In this document: positions 27,256-35,034 of the stretch, piece after piece
Numbering within the stretch: the first letter of the stretch is position 1
Layout: every line of letters starts with the position of its first letter
Assembly (NCBI GenBank): GCA_000004985.1
Contig: GG738861.1
Strand: one strand, 5' to 3'
Source: Naegleria gruberi
Lineage: Eukaryota
DNA length: 64,000 nucleotides
Position numbers and translations under genes: made by a program
Notes under the pieces: generated by a model
Told to the model about the DNA's origin: nothing
Databases searched by the model: none
What the model saw: the letters and a program-made list of their open reading frames with translations, nothing else

Positions 27256-27501
27256 ATGAGTAAACGAAAAATTGCGAATGAATCACGAACACTGCTCGAG
27301 TCTGCCAAAGATTACTTCCGAGAGATTTTCAAAGGAGACTGGCTCCGACCAAATAATTCCAATCTTTCTTTATTAACTCCACAACAACGTATTGAACAAC
27401 GAGAATTTACAAGAAAAAGACTTACATGGATGGTTTGGGGAATTTTGGGATGTGCTGCATTTGGAGCTCCTCTAGCAAAAAGATGTATGTATAATATTTA
27501 A
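27256..27501 (+). CDS. Small tail-anchored protein candidate (81 aa)
   Basis: True ATG. Single C-terminal hydrophobic segment WMVWGILGCAAFGAPLA. No family recognised. A possible additional micro-gene or 3' exons follow at 27506..27726 (MIIGVTLLVYIDMGSDED | RLKYQSN...DDDEYEE via GTAAGT...TTTCAG). Confidence 0.35.
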   Translation: MSKRKIANESRTLLESAKDYFREIFKGDWLRPNNSNLSLLTPQQRIEQREFTRKRLTWMVWGILGCAAFGAPLAKRCMYNI

Positions 27502-27836
27502 AAAATGATTATAGGAGTGACACTTCTTGTCTATATAGATATGGGATCGGATGAAGATGTAAGTGTGTGGAAAATTATATAATTTATTTATTGATGATTA
27601 ATATTTCAGAGATTGAAATATCAAAGTAACACCCTCTTGTCAAAGGAAGAAAAAGATGTTGATAAATTGAAGGAAGAAATTGCACAACTCAAGAAACAAC
27701 TCGATGATGACGAGTATGAGGAATAATTTGAAACAGTTTCAAATTTCACTTTGTAAATAAATCAAGACTGACTTCCTTCAATTACTCGAACTAACGGAAA
27801 CTTTCCCCGCTCAAATTTAAAATCAAAAATAATAAA

Positions 27837-30800
27837 ATGCCACCAGTAAGTAAATCGTTCTCTCTCTGAAATAATTTTTACACCTTTGAAATTCTAGAAA
27901 CCTGCTCCGGGAACGCAAAAGATTACATCCTTCTTTTCTGTGAAGAAACCAACATCTTCATCAACAGATAAATCACCAAAAAAGCCCTCAGCAAGGTTTG
28001 TTATTTTAATTTAAATTTAAATTTACAATCAAATGCAGCAGTAGCAATGGCAATATTGAAAATCCAAACAAACGTAAAAGAGAGTCTGTCACCCTTGAAT
28101 TGAGTGATGATTCTGATGGATGTGCATCACCAATTCTTACCAGGTCTCAGAGAGCAGAACAAGTTAAATCTCCATCATCATCCACACCTTCCAAATCAAC
28201 AACAAGCACAACACCAACCAAATCTACACCAACTAAATCATCAGCATCTAAAACAACCACCAGTAGTACTAGCAGCAGTAGTAAATCAACCAAATCTACA
28301 CCAACTAAATCCACTGTCACACTCAAGAAGCAACCAACAAGTGTAAAAGATGAAGATTGGAGTGATGATGAAAGAGATTTTGGTAAAGACAAGATAGTGT
28401 TGAATAAGGCAACACCAACCAAGTCTCCAGTAGTAGCTCAAAAGAACACAAAGATTATATTGGATGATGATGCGCTCAGTAGTCAAGATGTTGTTTCATC
28501 CCCTTCCACTAAAAAGAGAAAGACTAGCTCTCCATTCACCAAATCGCCAAGAAAAGTCAAAGAAGAGGAAGTTGAGGAGAAACCTAAAACAACACCAAAG
28601 AAGGAGGTTAAAAAAGAGGAAAAGAAAAAAAAGAATGATGACGACGATGAAGAGAAACCAGCCGAAACCAAAAAGAGAAACTTTTATGATAAGACACAAC
28701 ATCAAAATCAGCAAAAAGCTAAAAATCATGGATGTAAAACTGTGCCTGTCGGAAAAGCAAATTGTCTCAAAGACAAATCTTTTGTTATTACTGGTCAAAT
28801 GGAATCACTCGATAGAGATGAAATGGAAGACCTCATTAAGCAATATGGAGGTGTGATTCGTGGAAATGTTTCTGGAAGAACCAGCTTTGTTGTAGTTGGT
28901 GATGGGCCTGGAGAAAGTAAAATGAAAAAAGTTAGAGAACACAAAACTAAGCAACTTTCAGAGGATGATTTGTTGGAAATGATTGCAAAATCAAACCCAA
29001 GTGGAAAAGATTCTATGGATGAAACAGATGATGATGTCAGTCCTCCACCACAAAAGTTTATTCCTCCTTCAAAACCAAACTCTGTTGGTGCTTCCACCAC
29101 TCAAGTTATCAAATCCAAAAATGCTGACGATCAACTTTGGGTTGAAAAGTACAAACCATCCACGTCTTCGCAAATTATTGGACATAATAAGGAATGTGGA
29201 CTTTTACTTAATTGGTTAAAGGAGTGGCATGCGAATCTTGACAAGGAAATTCAAGCTGCCTCAACGCAAACTAAGGGAAGAAAGAAAGCAGCAACTGAAT
29301 GGAAGAGAGCAGCCTTCCTATCTGGTCCTCCAGGTATTGGTAAATCAACTTCAGCAGCTCTAATTGCCAAGGAGGCTGGGTTTACAAATATTGTAGAATT
29401 GAATGCATCTGATAGTAGAAGCAAAAAGGCAATGAAGGAACAAATTGTAGAATCTTGTCTCTCCAATAATATTTCCAATTATTTCCAAAAGAAGGGTCAA
29501 CCAAAACCTAAAGATGACAAACAACGAACTATTGTTATCATGGACGAAGTTGATGGTATGTCGAGTGGTGATAGAGGTGGAGTTGTTGAGCTTGTTCAAA
29601 TTATCAAACAAACTCGTGTGCCTGTCATTTGTATTGCCAATGATAGATCTAAAATCTCCTTGAAAACTCTCATTACTCACTGTTTGGATCTCAAATTTAG
29701 CAGACCTAGCAAGGCTACAATTACCAAAAAATTATTGGAAGTCTGTAAGAAGGAAAATCTCAGCATTGACAATAATGCTTTGGAATATATGGTTGAATCT
29801 CTGAACAATGATATCAGAAGTGTGTTGAATAATCTCCAACTCATCAATAGATACAGTGCTAAAGATCATATTGGCTATTTAGACGCCAAGAGTAGTGACT
29901 TGACAAAAACCAGCTCAACAGACGGTATTTTTGATGTTGTAAAGGATGTACTTGGGCAAAACAGCAAAAAGTACAATGAAAGACTTGAAGACTTTTACTT
30001 TGATCCAATGCTTGTACCTCTGTTCGTTGAACAGAACTATATTAATATAAGGCCACCTGGAGATGATAAGGAGAGAATTCAAAGAATTTCATATGCATCT
30101 GATTCCATTTCTATGGGTGATATTGTTAATTCCAAGATTAGAAAGGAAATGTCATTTGGTCTCATGAATTCTCATGCATTCTACAGTACCATGTATCCTG
30201 CTTACTTTATTCGAGGTTCTTTCCAAGCATTGAGAGGTTATGACAAGTATTATCAATTCCCAGCCGTTTTGGGTAAAGGAAGTACAACAACAAAGAACTA
30301 TAATGCTCTTAAGACTATTCAAAAGACTACATCACTCAAAGCTAGTGCCGACACTTTGGAAATGTTAGACTACCTTCCACTTCTTTCTAAAACTCTTCTC
30401 AATCCTCTTTTGGGTGGAGACAAAGATGTTCAGGAAACAATTGAAGCAATGGATGAATATCAAATTTCTCGTGATGATTTAGAGTTTATGTGTGAATTAT
30501 CAACATTTAAGGGAAAGAATTCATCTGACCAAAATAAGGATTGGTTCTCTGAGATTGATACTAAAACCAAGACAGCTCTTACTAGACAATATAACAAAGC
30601 TCACAAGGGATTTAACAAGGTTAGTGCAGCAGCTGCCCTCTCAAAGGTTGAAGACGAGGAAAATCCTGAAGCAGAGGAAGAGGACGAAGAAGAAGATTTA
30701 AAGGCTGATAAGTTTGTTACCAAGATGAAGAATATTGCCAAACTTGAAGCATTTGAAAAGAAACGAGAAAAGGCTGAAAAAGCTGAAAAGAAGTCAACCA

Positions 30801-30916
30801 AAAAGACAACCAAGAAGGAGACAACAAAGAAAGAGTCAACCAAAAAAGAGTCAACTAGCAAAAAGGAAGTTAAAAAAGAGACTGAAAAAAAGCCACTTGT
30901 GCTTAAAAAGAAATAA
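27837..30916 (+). CDS. RFC1: Replication factor C large subunit (RFC1), 3 exons approx 27837..27845, 27898..27995, 28039..30916 (~995 aa). N-terminal PIP box encoded in the micro-exons
   Basis: Track ORF 28100..30916 begins at TTG; its frame stays open upstream to the acceptor AAATGCAG at 28037-38. Exon 1 is ATG CCA CCA | GTAAGT. Exon 2 encodes KPAPGTQKITSFFSVKKP... (Qxx[I]xx[F][F] PCNA-interacting motif) and ends AG|GTTTGT. BRCT domain (KSFVITGQMESLDRDEMEDLIKQYGG). AAA+ clamp-loader core (LSGPPGIGKST, IVIMDEVDG). K/E-rich C-terminus. Confidence 0.85.
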
Positions 30917-31123: not shown

Positions 31124-31992
31124 ATGTATTTTGATACTCATAAACTTTTCCACGAGGATGCTCCAAAGCCAAACCAAAATGTTTTCCCATACGAACATTT
31201 AGTCATCAATGAAGATGCTAAGAAACATACACAGTATGTATTGTAATTTTGTATATTTTTCCTGATCGTAAAATCAATAATAATTAATTCATCATGATCT
31301 TGTTTGATGATGAATAACCTTGATACAACAATCCGAATAGAGACCCAATCGTTACTGGTACATCCATCTTGGGTATTAAATATAAAGGAGGAGTAATGTT
31401 GTGTTCTGATACTCTTGGATCATACGGTTCTCTTGCTAGATTCCGTTCTGTTGAAAGACTCAGAAAGGTTGGAAATAATACTCTTATCGGAGCTTCAGGC
31501 GAATACAGTGATTTCCAATATATTGTTGATTTATTAGAAAAATTAGTTGATAAGGATTTCTGTGCTGATGATAAGATTGAAACTCAACCAAAGGCAATTT
31601 TCCAATACTTGGTGCGTATTATGTATAACAGAAGAAACAAATTTAATCCATTGTGGAATACACTGATCGTTGCTGGTGTTAAAGATGGTAAATCATTCTT
31701 GGGTTATACTGATTTATTAGGATCAAACTTTGAGGATGACACTATGGCATCAGGTTATGGTGCTTATTTGGCCAAGCCAATTCTCAGAAAGTTCCTCGAT
31801 GAAAAGGGAGGAGATGTAAATAATATCACTGAACAAGAAGCCAAGGATGTTTTGGAAAAGTGTATGAAGGTTCTTTACTACAGAGATGCTAGAAGTATTA
31901 ACAAGATTCAAATTGCTACTGCCAACGAAACTGGACTCAATGTTACTGAACCTTACTCACTCCAAACAGAATGGGCTTTCAAAGGTTTTTAA
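31124..31992 (+). CDS. PSMB4: Proteasome subunit beta type-4 (beta7), 2 exons approx 31124..31233 and 31341..31992 (~253 aa)
   Basis: Strong match to the PSMB4 core (GGVMLCSDTLGSYGSLARFRSVERL...GASGEYSDFQYI...PLWNTLIVAG...GYGAYLA...RCMKVLYYRDARSINKIQIA). Track ORF starts at TTG. Upstream exon (MYFDTHKLFHEDAPKPNQNVFPYEHLVINEDAKKHTQ) joins via CA|GTATGT...AATAG|A (phase 2), giving ...TQDPIVTGTSILG, which parallels the animal propeptide/mature junction. Confidence 0.85.
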
Positions 31993-32200: not shown

Positions 32201-35034
32201 ATGTCTACAAAGGACGAAAGTGAATCACCACAAATTTCTGAAGAAAATACAGCTTCACCGCAAGCAACAAACTCTACCTATCAGAGAAGAATAGAATCTC
32301 TTCATCAGGAGCACAATAACGGCATCAAAAACTACTTAATTACTTTGGATCCTGCCGAATATAAATGTTGGTCAACAGAGGAAATATGTGCATTGTTGGT
32401 GTCGAGCAAATGTTTAGTGCTAGAAGATGTGCAACCACTACTTCAAGCCAAATTTAGAGGGGGAAGTATTGATAACATTATAATCGATATAAAACAAAAA
32501 GCTGGAAACTTAGAAGCAATATACGAAATAGAGCATAGATCCTTCCCCTCTGTTCCAATAGACACCCTTAAAAGCGTCGTAAATTGGATCAACTTTAATC
32601 TGATTCCAAACCTGTATCACAAATGGAGTGTTGCCCAAGTGAAAGAACTTTTGTGTTCAAATGGTGGATTGAGCGAACAAGAGTACTTGCCATTATGTGA
32701 GATCTCAGGTCAAGACTTGGTGAAAATAGTTCCATATGTAATTGATTGTCAACATGTATATATTAGGGAAAAGAAAATAGAATTATCCCCAAAAGCTTGC
32801 AAGAGAATTATTAGTACCCAATTCCACACTTTCCCAATAGAAAATTTACTATTTCAGTATGACATTGCTGGTCAAGAAAATAGACTCCTAAGACTAAAGA
32901 AACTTGGAATTGTGTGCTACGACAAGAAAATGTTGGGTTGTGTTCATGATTTGCTGATACTCTTAGAAAAATTAGAAATTGCAATCCAAGAATATGAAAA
33001 AAGAAAAACAAGTTCAATATCTGTATTTAATGAGCAAATGGACAAGTTGGGTTTGAGCAAGTCAGATTCTTATATTTATTTATACCCTAAACTTGATTTT
33101 GAAGATGAAGATGAAGAAACCTCTTTTTCTTGCGAACACGTTGTGTGCTCATTTGCTCCAACATTTCCTTACAATAAGTATGAGGATAGAGAAACTTATT
33201 TAAAGAGAAGAAATGTATTGACATTTACAGAACCTCCAGGAACAGGAAAAACTCATTCTGCTTTTCACTTAACGAGTTGTGGGAGAATGGTAATTCCTGT
33301 ATCACCAAAGCATATTTCCAGATTATTTCAACAATTATCCTTTTGTGGTGATTCACGTTTTGATTTGGACAGAATCACCCAAAAATTCACAGAGTTTTAT
33401 CACAGATTGGGTTGTTTTTTGATCAAGTATGCTGAATTGTATGTAAGGGAGACTAATCCACTCTCTTCATCTTCCATAATGCAATATATTTTGAGATTCC
33501 TTTGGAGCGGTGGGGGAAACTGGATTGGTGAGCAAGATTTGAGACTTTTTCTTCTATTTTTCCTCAACCTCAGTATAATAGAACTGTTTGGATTTTAGAT
33601 GAGGTTCAATGTATTGATTATGAATGTGGTTTAAAGGTACCCCGTCGTGATGCTGAAAGTGGTGACGGTTCCTTGTTGACCTTACTAGTTTCTTGGCTGA
33701 GATTAAAGGGTGCAGTGGTGCTTACTACAACAAATTTCTCTGCAGTCAAAGGTAAAATTGAAAGATTAATTTCATCAGATACTGGAAAAGAGGTTTTGGA
33801 AAAGTGTTCATACGAATTCAAATTACTTCCACTGCTTAATCCAAAGCAAGTCATTGAGTTTTTGAGGTATTTCATTACGGTAGACTCAAGAAGATTGTGG
33901 GTTTATGTTTCCTTCTTTTTACAAGGCACAATAAGAAATGTTGAATCTTTCTTGCAGAAATTGTATTTTAAAGCAAGTGAAGAAAAAGCTGCAGGTTTAG
34001 GTGATGACTTTATATTGAGTGTTCTTCATTCTTTTTGTAGAGACAAGGTTTCACTTAAATTGAGTAGAAAGGAAGAAATGGGTTCAACATTTCCAAATTT
34101 TGAATACATATTTTACAAACTAGCAATAGCTGGGGAAGTTAATCTGCAAGAGTTAAATCTCACTGAAGAACAATGCGAACTAACCAAATTTTTAATTTGT
34201 AACGGAGTGAGCTTTATCTACATGCAAGAGTCTTATACATACAAGTTATCAAGTTGCCTTGAAAAAGGAAGAATGTTGAATTATGTATTTGACAAGTTTA
34301 CAAAGAAAAATTGGGTTGCAGAAATATTTACAATTTTAGTTAATAACAAGAATTCTACTTCCCAAGACATCTCATTGCTTGCAGAAGTATTTCTTGTAGA
34401 TATACTTATTAATCACTTTGGTTCATTAATTGCTCCACTTGTTAAAGGTTCATATGTCGACTCGTATGAATTACTGGCGAAGCACTATTTTGAAGATCCT
34501 CAATCATCTACCATCGATAAAGATAATGTTAAGATGTCTTCATTGATGATCGAATATCTTGCTGTCCAGACAAAGAGCAAGTATGACACAATCTGTCAAT
34601 TTTTGTCTCGCACAGGACAGTTTGCTGAAATTGACATACTGGGAATATTGTCAACAAAAGATAGCAAAAATTGTTTACCAAGCGCTATTCCACTAACTGT
34701 AGCCATTTCCAGAAGTAACGACAACCAGTCCAAGAAATTGAAAAAAGACTTTGCCAGTTCAATGTACAGAAATAACTCGACCAAAAGGAAGAGTGTAAGA
34801 ATGTTATTTCATCCTAATTGCTCATATTCAAAGAGTTTAAATGACAGAATTACTGAGGGAACGTTTAATAATGAAACAGAGAAGGTAACAATCAAACAGG
34901 TCCTTACAGACTATTCTGTAATTACTGGAGATGATCAGTGTGTTATTGAGATTAGTTCTGGAATTGAAAAACAATGGCCTGAATGGAAACCATTTATGGA
35001 CAGTTGGAGAAAGCTTTTTGTTGAGAATCAATAA
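32201..35034 (+). CDS. Tandem SAM-like domains + P-loop NTPase + large alpha-helical C-terminal region, 2 exons approx 32201..33527 and 33599..35034 (~920 aa). Novel signalling NTPase candidate
   Basis: Track ORFs 32201..33598 and 33673..35034 join by a GTGAGC...GATTTTAG intron (33528..33598, 71 nt, phase 1). The first ORF's tail (LFLLFFLNLSIIELFGF*) is intron read-through and the second ORF has no ATG. SAM-like segments WSTEEICALLVSS...LEDVQPLL and WSVAQVKELLCSNGGLSEQEYLPLCEISGQDLVKIV. Walker A TFTEPPGTGKTHSAF. hhhTTN sensor-like AVVLTTTN after the junction. Confidence 0.6.

What the first reader, a model, noticed from the sequence alone, without database searches (positions are those of the whole stretch)
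27837..28039. RFC1 N-terminus encoded by two micro-exons (9 nt and 98 nt) carrying a canonical PIP box
The annotated ORF starts at TTG. The true start is ATG CCA CCA followed immediately by GTAAGT. Exon 2 encodes KPAPGTQKITSFFSVKK, a textbook Qxx[ILM]xx[FY][FY] PCNA-interacting peptide at the extreme N-terminus, similar in position to DNA ligase I's N-terminal PIP box. A 3-codon first exon would be missed by gene finders, so the PIP box would be missing from automated models.
Basis: partly seen in the sequence, partly recalled or inferred. Interest (0 to 1): 0.5.

Follow-up and report, generated by a model that had tools for sequence, protein, structure and literature searches.

The report
Known RFC1 N-terminal PCNA-binding motif
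The two tiny first exons of this Naegleria gruberi clamp-loader gene (RFC1) are real, but they are already in the public gene model, and the motif they encode is the known Q-less RFC1 N-terminal PCNA-binding motif rather than a textbook PIP box, so the finding is correct but ordinary.

Summary
The window is Naegleria gruberi. It gives a stop-free 994-aa RFC1 with BRCT, AAA+ and RFC1 C-terminal domains. Two other heteroloboseans, Willaertia magna and a metagenomic relative, share the 9-nt ATGCCACC[A/G]|GTAAGT first exon, a KIT[S/A]FF-encoding second exon and a phase-2 second intron.

Two claims fail. First, the motif is T-Q-K-I-T-S-F-F. With I at position 4 and FF at positions 7/8, position 1 is Thr and the Gln is one residue out of register. 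It is absent or misplaced in both orthologues. This is a Q-less PIP-like box, as in human (MDIRKFF) and yeast (MVNISDFF) RFC1, not a "textbook" one. Second, gene finders did not miss it. The exact 994-aa product is XP_002678510.1 / UniProt D2VBB2, and the W. magna model also starts MPPK…KITAFF.

An extreme N-terminal PIP box in RFC1 that recruits it to PCNA has been published (Hashiguchi 2007; Montecucco 1998). PCNA binding in Naegleria is inferred, not shown. The remaining uncertainty is a CAG|CAG|TAG tandem acceptor (±1-2 Ser). Low interest, already known.

The parts
27837..27845 (+). RFC1 exon 1: ATG CCA CCA (Met-Pro-Pro), 9 nt, in an AAAATG context
   Evidence: The same 9-nt exon followed by GTAAGT is present in W. 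magna (L001 3001-3009) and the metagenomic relative (L002 2128-2136, ATGCCACCG). It is part of public model XP_002678510.1.
27846..27897 (+). Intron 1, 52 nt, GTAAGT...TCTAG, phase 0
   Evidence: Orthologous introns are 78 nt and 41 nt at the same position. The intron body shows no evident conservation beyond the GTAAGT donor.
27898..27995 (+). RFC1 exon 2, 98 nt, encoding K4-A35 plus 2 nt of Ser36
   Evidence: Orthologous exons are 125 nt and 92 nt, and all three are 2 mod 3. The peptide similarity to orthologues exceeds shuffles.
27913..27936 (+). PIP-like box T9-Q-K-I12-T-S-F15-F16 (positions 1-8). The I-x-x-F-F hydrophobic core is present and Gln is at position 2
   Evidence: The KIT[S/A]FF core is conserved in three heteroloboseans. 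Of the four nucleotide differences across those six codons, two are synonymous third-position changes (AAG/AAA, TTC/TTT) and two make up the Ser/Ala replacement (TCC/GCA). The same I-x-x-F-F core lies at the N-terminus of many RFC1s. The human counterpart was tested by F6A/F7A (PMC1888830).
27996..28038 (+). Intron 2, 43 nt, GTTTGT...TGCAG, phase 2, followed by in-frame tandem acceptors at 28041 (CAG) and 28044 (TAG)
   Evidence: A phase-2 intron lies at the equivalent place in both relatives. The three acceptor choices score almost equally (213/212/209) and differ by 1-2 Ser.
28039..30916 (+). RFC1 exon 3 (2878 nt including the TAA stop). It holds a K/S/T/P-rich low-complexity linker, BRCT (28757-28984), AAA+ (29315-29671, Walker A GPPGIGKS at 29324-29347), the RFC1 lid (29717-29851) and the RFC1 C-terminal domain (30107-30598)
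   Evidence: The conserved core is 77% identical to P0001 and 58% to W. magna RFC1.

Best explanation
A 9-nt first exon (MPP) and a 98-nt second exon are spliced onto the large third exon. Exon 2 encodes the RFC1-family N-terminal PCNA-interacting motif, here KITSFF within T-Q-K-I-T-S-F-F. The inferred mechanism is that this disordered N-terminal peptide forms a short helical turn that places Ile12, Phe15 and Phe16 into the hydrophobic pocket of PCNA. That would give RFC a second, tethering contact with PCNA, concentrating the loader at replication and repair sites. It would be separate from the catalytic PCNA contact of the AAA+ module and dispensable for clamp loading itself. Shown here: the gene structure, its conservation, and the motif's presence and conservation. 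Inferred from human and yeast work: PCNA binding and a recruitment role.
For: Gene model: the splice arithmetic is exact and stop-free, and no other usable start exists. Three heterolobosean loci share the 9-nt exon plus GTAAGT, a second exon of length 2 mod 3, and a phase-2 second intron. The N-terminal peptide similarity beat every one of 5000 shuffles for W. magna and all but 8 for the metagenomic relative. The product is identical to XP_002678510.1/D2VBB2. Identity as RFC1: Pfam RFC1 C-terminal domain 4e-45, BRCT 5e-14, AAA, AAA_lid_RFC1. Motif: KIT[S/A]FF is invariant apart from S/A, with synonymous third-position changes at two of its six codons. Among M-starting RFC1 homologues of at least 500 aa, 25 of 153 have [ILMV]xx[FYW][FYW] within the first 25 residues, against 4.8% of internal 25-aa windows. 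Function in a characterised homologue: human RFC140 has a PIP-box at its extreme N-terminus, conserved in nine eukaryotes, and F6A/F7A abolishes PCNA-dependent accumulation of fragment 1-369. RFC140 and ligase I recruitment to replication sites requires this PCNA-binding domain (PMC1888830, citing Montecucco 1998). A missing Gln is tolerated: 34% of 77 confirmed PCNA motifs lack it, and position 1 is the most permissive (PMC6881253).
Against: No transcript or junction evidence could be examined, and no binding data exist for Naegleria. The motif lacks Gln at position 1. In p21 a Q1A change costs about 50-fold in affinity (PMC6881253), so binding may be weak. Many RFC1 homologues in my set show no such N-terminal motif (128 of 153). 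Some of these are visibly truncated or mis-called N-termini, but the fraction was not determined. The motif starts at residue 9-12 rather than residue 1-5 as in most other RFC1s. The N-terminal extension of RFC1 is not essential for viability or for in vitro loading in other systems (PMC5333041), so the motif's contribution may be minor.
Confidence: 0.85

Rival explanations
1. The exons are real, but the I-x-x-F-F motif does not bind PCNA in Naegleria. It would be a conserved N-terminal patch with another role (for example a different partner, or a localisation or stability signal), and the resemblance to PIP boxes would be superficial because Gln is missing at position 1.
For: Thr occupies position 1, and Gln is out of register and not conserved. 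Loss of Gln reduced p21 affinity about 50-fold (PMC6881253). The core regex occurs in about 5% of random 25-aa windows of RFC1 proteins.
Against: The same Q-less motif (MDIRKFF) in human RFC140 is a tested PCNA-binding site (PMC1888830). The core is conserved under apparent purifying selection in three heteroloboseans and recurs at RFC1 N-termini across fungi, animals, plants and stramenopiles.
Confidence: 0.08
2. A different splice pattern is used. Either intron 1 uses the downstream acceptor at 27921 (CAAAAG|ATT), giving MPP-ITSFFSVKK, which puts the motif in the M-x-x-I-x-x-F-F register seen in most eukaryotes. Or intron 2 uses the tandem acceptors at 28041 or 28044, giving 1-2 fewer Ser.
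For: All of these are stop-free GT-AG models. The intron 2 acceptor variants score 213/212/209 against the orthologues, which is indistinguishable. MPPITSFF scores 193 and mimics MAGITSFF and MVNITDFF of fungal RFC1s. L002 also has AAG|ATT at the equivalent site.
Against: For 27921: W. magna uses AAA for that Lys, so it has no AG there. Lys4 after MPP is conserved in all three species. The segment upstream of 27921 is coding-like rather than pyrimidine-rich, and the public model uses 27897. For the tandem acceptor: the first AG after the branch region is usually preferred (general knowledge), and the public model uses 28038.
Confidence: 0.06
3. The motif is a PIP degron that targets RFC1 for CRL4-Cdt2-dependent destruction on chromatin-bound PCNA.
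For: Thr at position 5 is conserved in all three species, and N. gruberi has Lys at +3 and +4 after FF (FFSVKK). The degron definition is in PMC6881253.
Against: Position 6 is Ser or Ala, not Asp. The +4 residue is Ala in W. magna (FFKKKA) and Pro in the metagenomic relative (FFAPKP), so the basic +4 is not conserved.
Confidence: 0.01

Closest known systems
Human RFC1 (RFC140/p140) extreme N-terminal PIP box, MDIRKFF, residues 1-7 (Hashiguchi et al. 2007, PMC1888830; Montecucco et al. 1998)
   Same: Same protein family and the same location at the N-terminal tip, ahead of a long low-complexity linker and the BRCT domain. It has the same Q-less I-x-x-F-F core. The role shown in human is PCNA-dependent recruitment to replication and repair sites.
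   Different: In Naegleria the core starts at residue 12, after a lineage-specific MPPK-x(n) leader, rather than at residue 3. Position 5 is Thr rather than Arg. No experimental test exists in Naegleria.
DNA ligase I N-terminal PIP box / replication factory targeting sequence (MQRSIMSFF)
   Same: An extreme N-terminal, disordered PCNA-docking peptide with an I-x-x-F-F core. The shared targeting mechanism with RFC p140 is noted in the literature cited in PMC1888830.
   Different: Ligase I has the canonical Gln at position 1, and it is a different protein. The ligase I sequence is quoted from my own knowledge and was not checked here.
Willaertia magna RFC1 (ABK040_007138, P0002) and the metagenomic orthologue on L002
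   Same: Orthologues with the same three-exon 5' architecture, the MPPK start, KITAFF, a basic/Ser-rich spacer and KRKR..SDSD.
   Different: Spacer lengths differ, with the motif core at residue 14 and 9 respectively. Neither has Gln adjacent to the core in the N. gruberi position. The core domains are 58% and 77% identical.
Canonical PIP box QxxΨxxθθ (p21, FEN1; definition in PMC6881253)
   Same: Ψ at position 4 (Ile) and aromatics at positions 7/8 (Phe-Phe). It lies in a low-complexity, presumably disordered region.
   Different: Position 1 is Thr, not Gln. The neighbouring Gln is at position 2 and is not conserved.

Membership tests
RFC1 (replication factor C large subunit) | RFC1 C-terminal domain (PF08519) together with the RFC1-type AAA+ lid | tested here: met
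   PF08519 at 4.2e-45 (154 bits, cut-off 23), aa 726-889. PF25361 at 42.5 bits (cut-off 34.9).
RFC1 (replication factor C large subunit) | AAA+ ATPase module with a Walker A P-loop | tested here: met
   PF00004 at aa 462-580. GPPGIGKS at aa 465-472.
RFC1 (replication factor C large subunit) | N-terminal BRCT domain preceding the AAA+ module | tested here: met
   PF00533 at 4.6e-14, aa 276-351.
RFC1 (replication factor C large subunit) | Identity or orthology with annotated RFC1 proteins | tested here: met
   Exact full-length match to XP_002678510.1 / D2VBB2 'replication factor C large subunit [Naegleria gruberi]'. The best homologues are RFC1s across eukaryotes.
Canonical PIP box (QxxΨxxθθ) | Gln at position 1 | tested here: not met
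   With FF at positions 7/8 and Ile at 4, position 1 is Thr9 and Gln10 is position 2. The regex Q..[ILMV]..[FYW][FYW] does not match. Orthologues have His or Gly at position 1.
Canonical PIP box (QxxΨxxθθ) | Aliphatic residue at position 4 and two aromatics at positions 7 and 8 | tested here: met
   I12, F15 and F16, conserved in all three heteroloboseans.
Canonical PIP box (QxxΨxxθθ) | Direct binding to the PCNA hydrophobic pocket under the interdomain connecting loop | not testable with these tools
   This needs a binding assay or a complex structure. The structure tool takes single chains, and N. gruberi PCNA is not in the window.
RFC1-type N-terminal PIP-like box (human MDIRKFF class) | I/V/L-x-x-[FYW]-[FYW] core within the first ~25 residues of an RFC1 protein | tested here: met
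   The core lies at residues 12-16. The same feature is present in 25 of 153 RFC1 homologues surveyed, and 24 of those 25 lack Gln at position 1.
RFC1-type N-terminal PIP-like box (human MDIRKFF class) | Conservation of the core among orthologues despite a divergent surrounding linker | tested here: met
   KIT[S/A]FF is conserved in three species, with synonymous third-position differences. The flanks need gaps to align.
RFC1-type N-terminal PIP-like box (human MDIRKFF class) | Phe-Phe-dependent PCNA interaction and recruitment | not testable with these tools
   Shown only for human RFC140 F6A/F7A (PMC1888830).
PIP degron | Thr-Asp at positions 5-6 and a basic residue at +4 | tested here: not met
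   Positions 5-6 are T-S in N. gruberi and T-A in both relatives. The +4 residue is Lys in N. gruberi but Ala and Pro in the relatives. Definition from PMC6881253.

The most novel reading that the evidence does not exclude
The conserved heterolobosean leader could itself be functional. This leader is a separate 9-nt exon encoding Met-Pro-Pro, an intron at exactly the same place in Naegleria, Willaertia and a third relative, and then Lys plus a variable spacer before KITxFF. Possible roles are a 5'-proximal intron needed for expression, an N-terminal Pro-Pro signal affecting processing or stability, or regulated use of the 27921 acceptor to switch between MPPK...KITSFF and an MPPITSFF isoform in the pan-eukaryotic register. 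My evidence shows conservation of the architecture but cannot say why it is conserved.
Probability: 0.08. Interest if true: 0.25.

Novelty: already known. Interest (0 to 1): 0.1.

Why it matters
It matters little beyond quality control. The result confirms that the public N. gruberi RFC1 model (XP_002678510.1) has a correct 5' end. It also shows that the RFC1 N-terminal PCNA-docking motif, characterised in human cells, extends to Heterolobosea, a deep-branching eukaryotic lineage, which is consistent with an ancient origin for this second RFC-PCNA contact. It illustrates that ORF scans and prokaryote-style gene callers on metagenomic eukaryotic contigs (P0001) lose such N-terminal short linear motifs. 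Finally, it shows that 'PIP box' calls made by eye should be checked for register.

Tried and rejected
1. I looked for a start codon inside the long ORF. There is none before Met290, inside BRCT, and the TTG at 28100 is an ORF-scan artefact.
2. I enumerated every GT-AG combination between the upstream gene's stop codon and position 28100, the start of the listed ORF. This gave 212 stop-free models, so splice arithmetic alone does not prove the model.
3. An exact look-up of two neighbouring ORF products found nothing: the RCC1-like 452-aa ORF via the look-up of encoding contigs and the 465-aa ORF via the listing of cluster members. Only the RFC1 model identified the organism.
4. An unbiased metagenome scan with the conserved RFC1 core, meant to find more heterolobosean loci, returned one distant locus at 23% identity (L003). 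It was of no use, and the comparative set stays at three species.
5. A literature search for Naegleria intron-length statistics returned nothing specific. Montecucco 1998 is not held and is cited only through PMC1888830.
6. The PIP-degron reading was rejected: there is no Asp at position 6 and no conserved basic residue at +4.
7. GTAAGT is not over-represented in the window. There are 11 per strand, against roughly 22 expected from base composition by my own estimate. The donor hexamer alone is therefore weak evidence, and its conservation at the same position in three species is what counts.

Full report
**What is in the sequence.** The region is part of an AT-rich (34% GC) eukaryotic window. 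On the + strand, ATG CCA CCA lies at 27837-27845 and is followed directly by GTAAGT. A 52-nt intron ends in TAG at 27897. A 98-nt exon (27898-27995) encodes KPAPGTQKITSFFSVKKPTSSSTDKSPKKPSA plus two bases. A 43-nt intron (GTTTGT...TGCAG) ends at 28038, and the long open frame then continues to a stop at 30914-30916. Joined, these pieces give a 2985-nt CDS and a 994-aa protein with no internal stop.

**Why an upstream exon is required.** An upstream coding exon is required. The frame of the long ORF is closed by a TAA at 28007-28009. The 'TTG start' at 28100 is only what a bacterial-style ORF scan reports. The first in-frame Met inside the ORF is residue 290, within the BRCT domain.

**Is the splice model more than arithmetic?** Arithmetic alone is weak. 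Using a bare GT...AG rule with introns of at least 25 nt, I found 212 stop-free ways of joining an ATG between the upstream gene's stop and the ORF. However, 211 of them start at ATG 27837, so the start codon is effectively forced. GTAAGT is not enriched in this intron-poor window (11 per strand), so the donor hexamer alone proves little.

**Comparative evidence.** The decisive evidence is comparative. The closest relatives of the protein are Willaertia magna RFC1 (P0002, 58% identity over the conserved core) and a metagenomic protein (P0001, 77%). I fetched their DNA as L001 and L002. Both loci have the following features:
- ATGCCACC[A/G] followed immediately by GTAAGT.
- A short first intron of 78 nt (W. 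magna) or 41 nt (L002).
- A second exon of 125 nt or 92 nt. Like the 98-nt exon here, both lengths are 2 mod 3.
- A phase-2 second intron of 51 nt or 40 nt, placed just before a KRKR...SDSD segment.

The spliced N-termini are collinear:
- This window: MPPKPAPGTQKITSFFSVKKPTSSSTDKSPKK...
- W. magna: MPPKKQDTTDHPKITAFFKKKASSSSTDSPSKK...
- L002: MPPKQGGKITAFFAPKPNKSPKK...

The similarity of the 35-aa exon 1+2 peptide to W. magna beat every one of 5000 composition-preserving shuffles, and for L002 all but 8. The other two reading frames of the region score far lower. In the six KITxFF codons the three species differ at four nucleotide positions. Two are synonymous third-position changes (AAG/AAA, TTC/TTT) and two make up the Ser/Ala replacement (TCC/GCA), which is the signature of a translated, constrained exon.

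**Residual ambiguities in the model.**
- Intron 2 ends in a tandem acceptor, CAG|CAG|TAG (28038, 28041, 28044). All three choices are in frame and differ only by one or two Ser. They score 212, 209 and 213, so the sequence cannot choose between them.
- An acceptor at 27921 would give MPPITSFF, the register seen in most other eukaryotes. That AG is absent in W. magna (Lys codon AAA), and Lys4 is conserved after MPP in all three species, so I consider this at best a minor isoform.

**What the gene is.** The product has the RFC1 C-terminal domain (4e-45), BRCT, AAA+ with Walker A GPPGIGKS, and the RFC1-type lid, all above Pfam's cut-offs. An exact-sequence look-up settles identity and organism. 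The 994-aa product, residue for residue, is EFC45766.1 / XP_002678510.1 / UniProt D2VBB2, 'replication factor C large subunit [Naegleria gruberi strain NEG-M]'.

**What this means for the annotation claim.** The automated public model already contains the 3-codon exon and the motif. The NCBI model for W. magna also begins MPPK...KITAFF. Only the metagenomic protein P0001 lacks it, because a prokaryote-style caller started at an internal ATG and read through intron 2, producing 'MMLPIHSKFNS...'.

[quoted passage not shown] Here FF (F15, F16) fixes Ile12 at position 4 and Thr9 at position 1, which puts Gln10 at position 2. The sequence is Q-x-I-x-x-F-F, one residue short of the canonical spacing, and my regex for the canonical pattern does not match. 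The Gln is not conserved either: position 1 is His in W. magna and Gly in the metagenomic relative. So the motif is a Q-less PIP-like box, not a 'textbook' one.

**How the motif compares with other RFC1s.** Among RFC1 homologues of at least 500 aa that start with Met, 25 of 153 carry [ILMV]xx[FYW][FYW] in the first 25 residues, against 4.8% of internal 25-aa windows. Examples are MDIRSFF, MDIRNFF, MVNITDFF and MAGITSFF. Only one of the 25 has Gln at position 1. Lack of Gln does not exclude PCNA binding. In a set of 77 confirmed motifs, 34% lack it and position 1 is the most permissive, although Q1A in p21 costs about 50-fold in affinity (PMC6881253).

**How it most likely works.** This part is inferred from characterised homologues. 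Hashiguchi et al. 2007 state that human RFC140 contains a PIP-box at its extreme N-terminus, conserved in nine eukaryotes. They show that F6A/F7A abolishes the nuclear retention and damage-site accumulation of fragment 1-369. They distinguish this 'PCNA-A' site from the AAA+-module 'PCNA-B' site. They also cite Montecucco et al. 1998 for PCNA-binding-domain-dependent recruitment of RFC140 and DNA ligase I to replication sites (PMC1888830). The RFC1 N-terminal extension is not needed for viability or in vitro loading, but its loss sensitises cells to DNA damage (PMC5333041). I therefore propose that I12, F15 and F16 of N. gruberi RFC1 dock into the hydrophobic pocket of PCNA. This would tether the loader to PCNA already at forks or repair sites, as an auxiliary contact rather than the catalytic one. 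The gene structure, the motif and their conservation are shown here. PCNA binding and the recruitment role are inferred.

**Readings I rejected.** A PIP-degron reading fails because position 6 is Ser or Ala, not Asp, and the basic +4 residue is not conserved.

**Novelty and verdict.** The exon structure is correct and already annotated. The motif class is already described for RFC1. The only lineage-specific feature is the conserved MPPK leader on its own 9-nt exon, which displaces the motif 6-11 residues from where it sits in most eukaryotes. I found no evidence that this has a function of its own. This is a correct but ordinary finding, already known and of low interest.

Noticed in passing
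window 28036-28044: Intron 2 of RFC1 ends in a triple tandem acceptor, CAG|CAG|TAG. All three choices are in frame, so splicing could yield products with 3, 2 or 1 Ser at this point. The public model uses the first.
   Followed up: partly
window 31124-31992: The neighbouring proteasome beta-subunit gene (Pfam PF00227) has the same kind of ORF-scan artefact. The listed ORF 'starts' at TTG 31369, but an ATG at 31124 opens a 110-nt first exon, followed by a 107-nt GTATGT...TAG phase-2 intron (31234-31340) that joins in frame. I read this by eye and did not check it against orthologues.
   Followed up: partly
window 27256-27727: The small gene just upstream of RFC1 appears to contain a 51-nt GTAAGT...TTCAG intron (27559-27609), and probably another near 27487-27513. 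It ends at TAA 27725-27727, leaving only 109 nt for its 3' end plus the RFC1 promoter and 5' UTR.
   Followed up: no
window 28182-28315 and 28410-28429: The RFC1 linker contains imperfect 15-nt-spaced direct repeats encoding TPTKS/KSTPTKS units (an exact 25-nt copy at 28215-28239 and 28287-28311). This looks like local expansion of a Ser/Thr/Pro/Lys-rich low-complexity tract.
   Followed up: partly
L002 2251-2309 (metagenome contig ERZ27315067 k141_59889): The deposited protein P0001 starts at an internal ATG and translates intron 2 (MMLPIHSKFNSIHSFPSSH...). The true N-terminus, by homology, is MPPKQGGKITAFF..., from exons at 2128-2136 and 2178-2269.
   Followed up: yes
window 32201-33598: A 465-aa ATG-initiated ORF has no Pfam match at E<=0.001, and its exact sequence is not in the protein collection. 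It may be part of a spliced gene whose public model differs.
   Followed up: no
protein searches: Neither homology search returned the window's own protein (P0176 / XP_002678510.1) or any Naegleria entry, although the exact look-up shows it is in the collection. Absence from those hit lists is therefore not evidence of absence from the database.
   Followed up: partly
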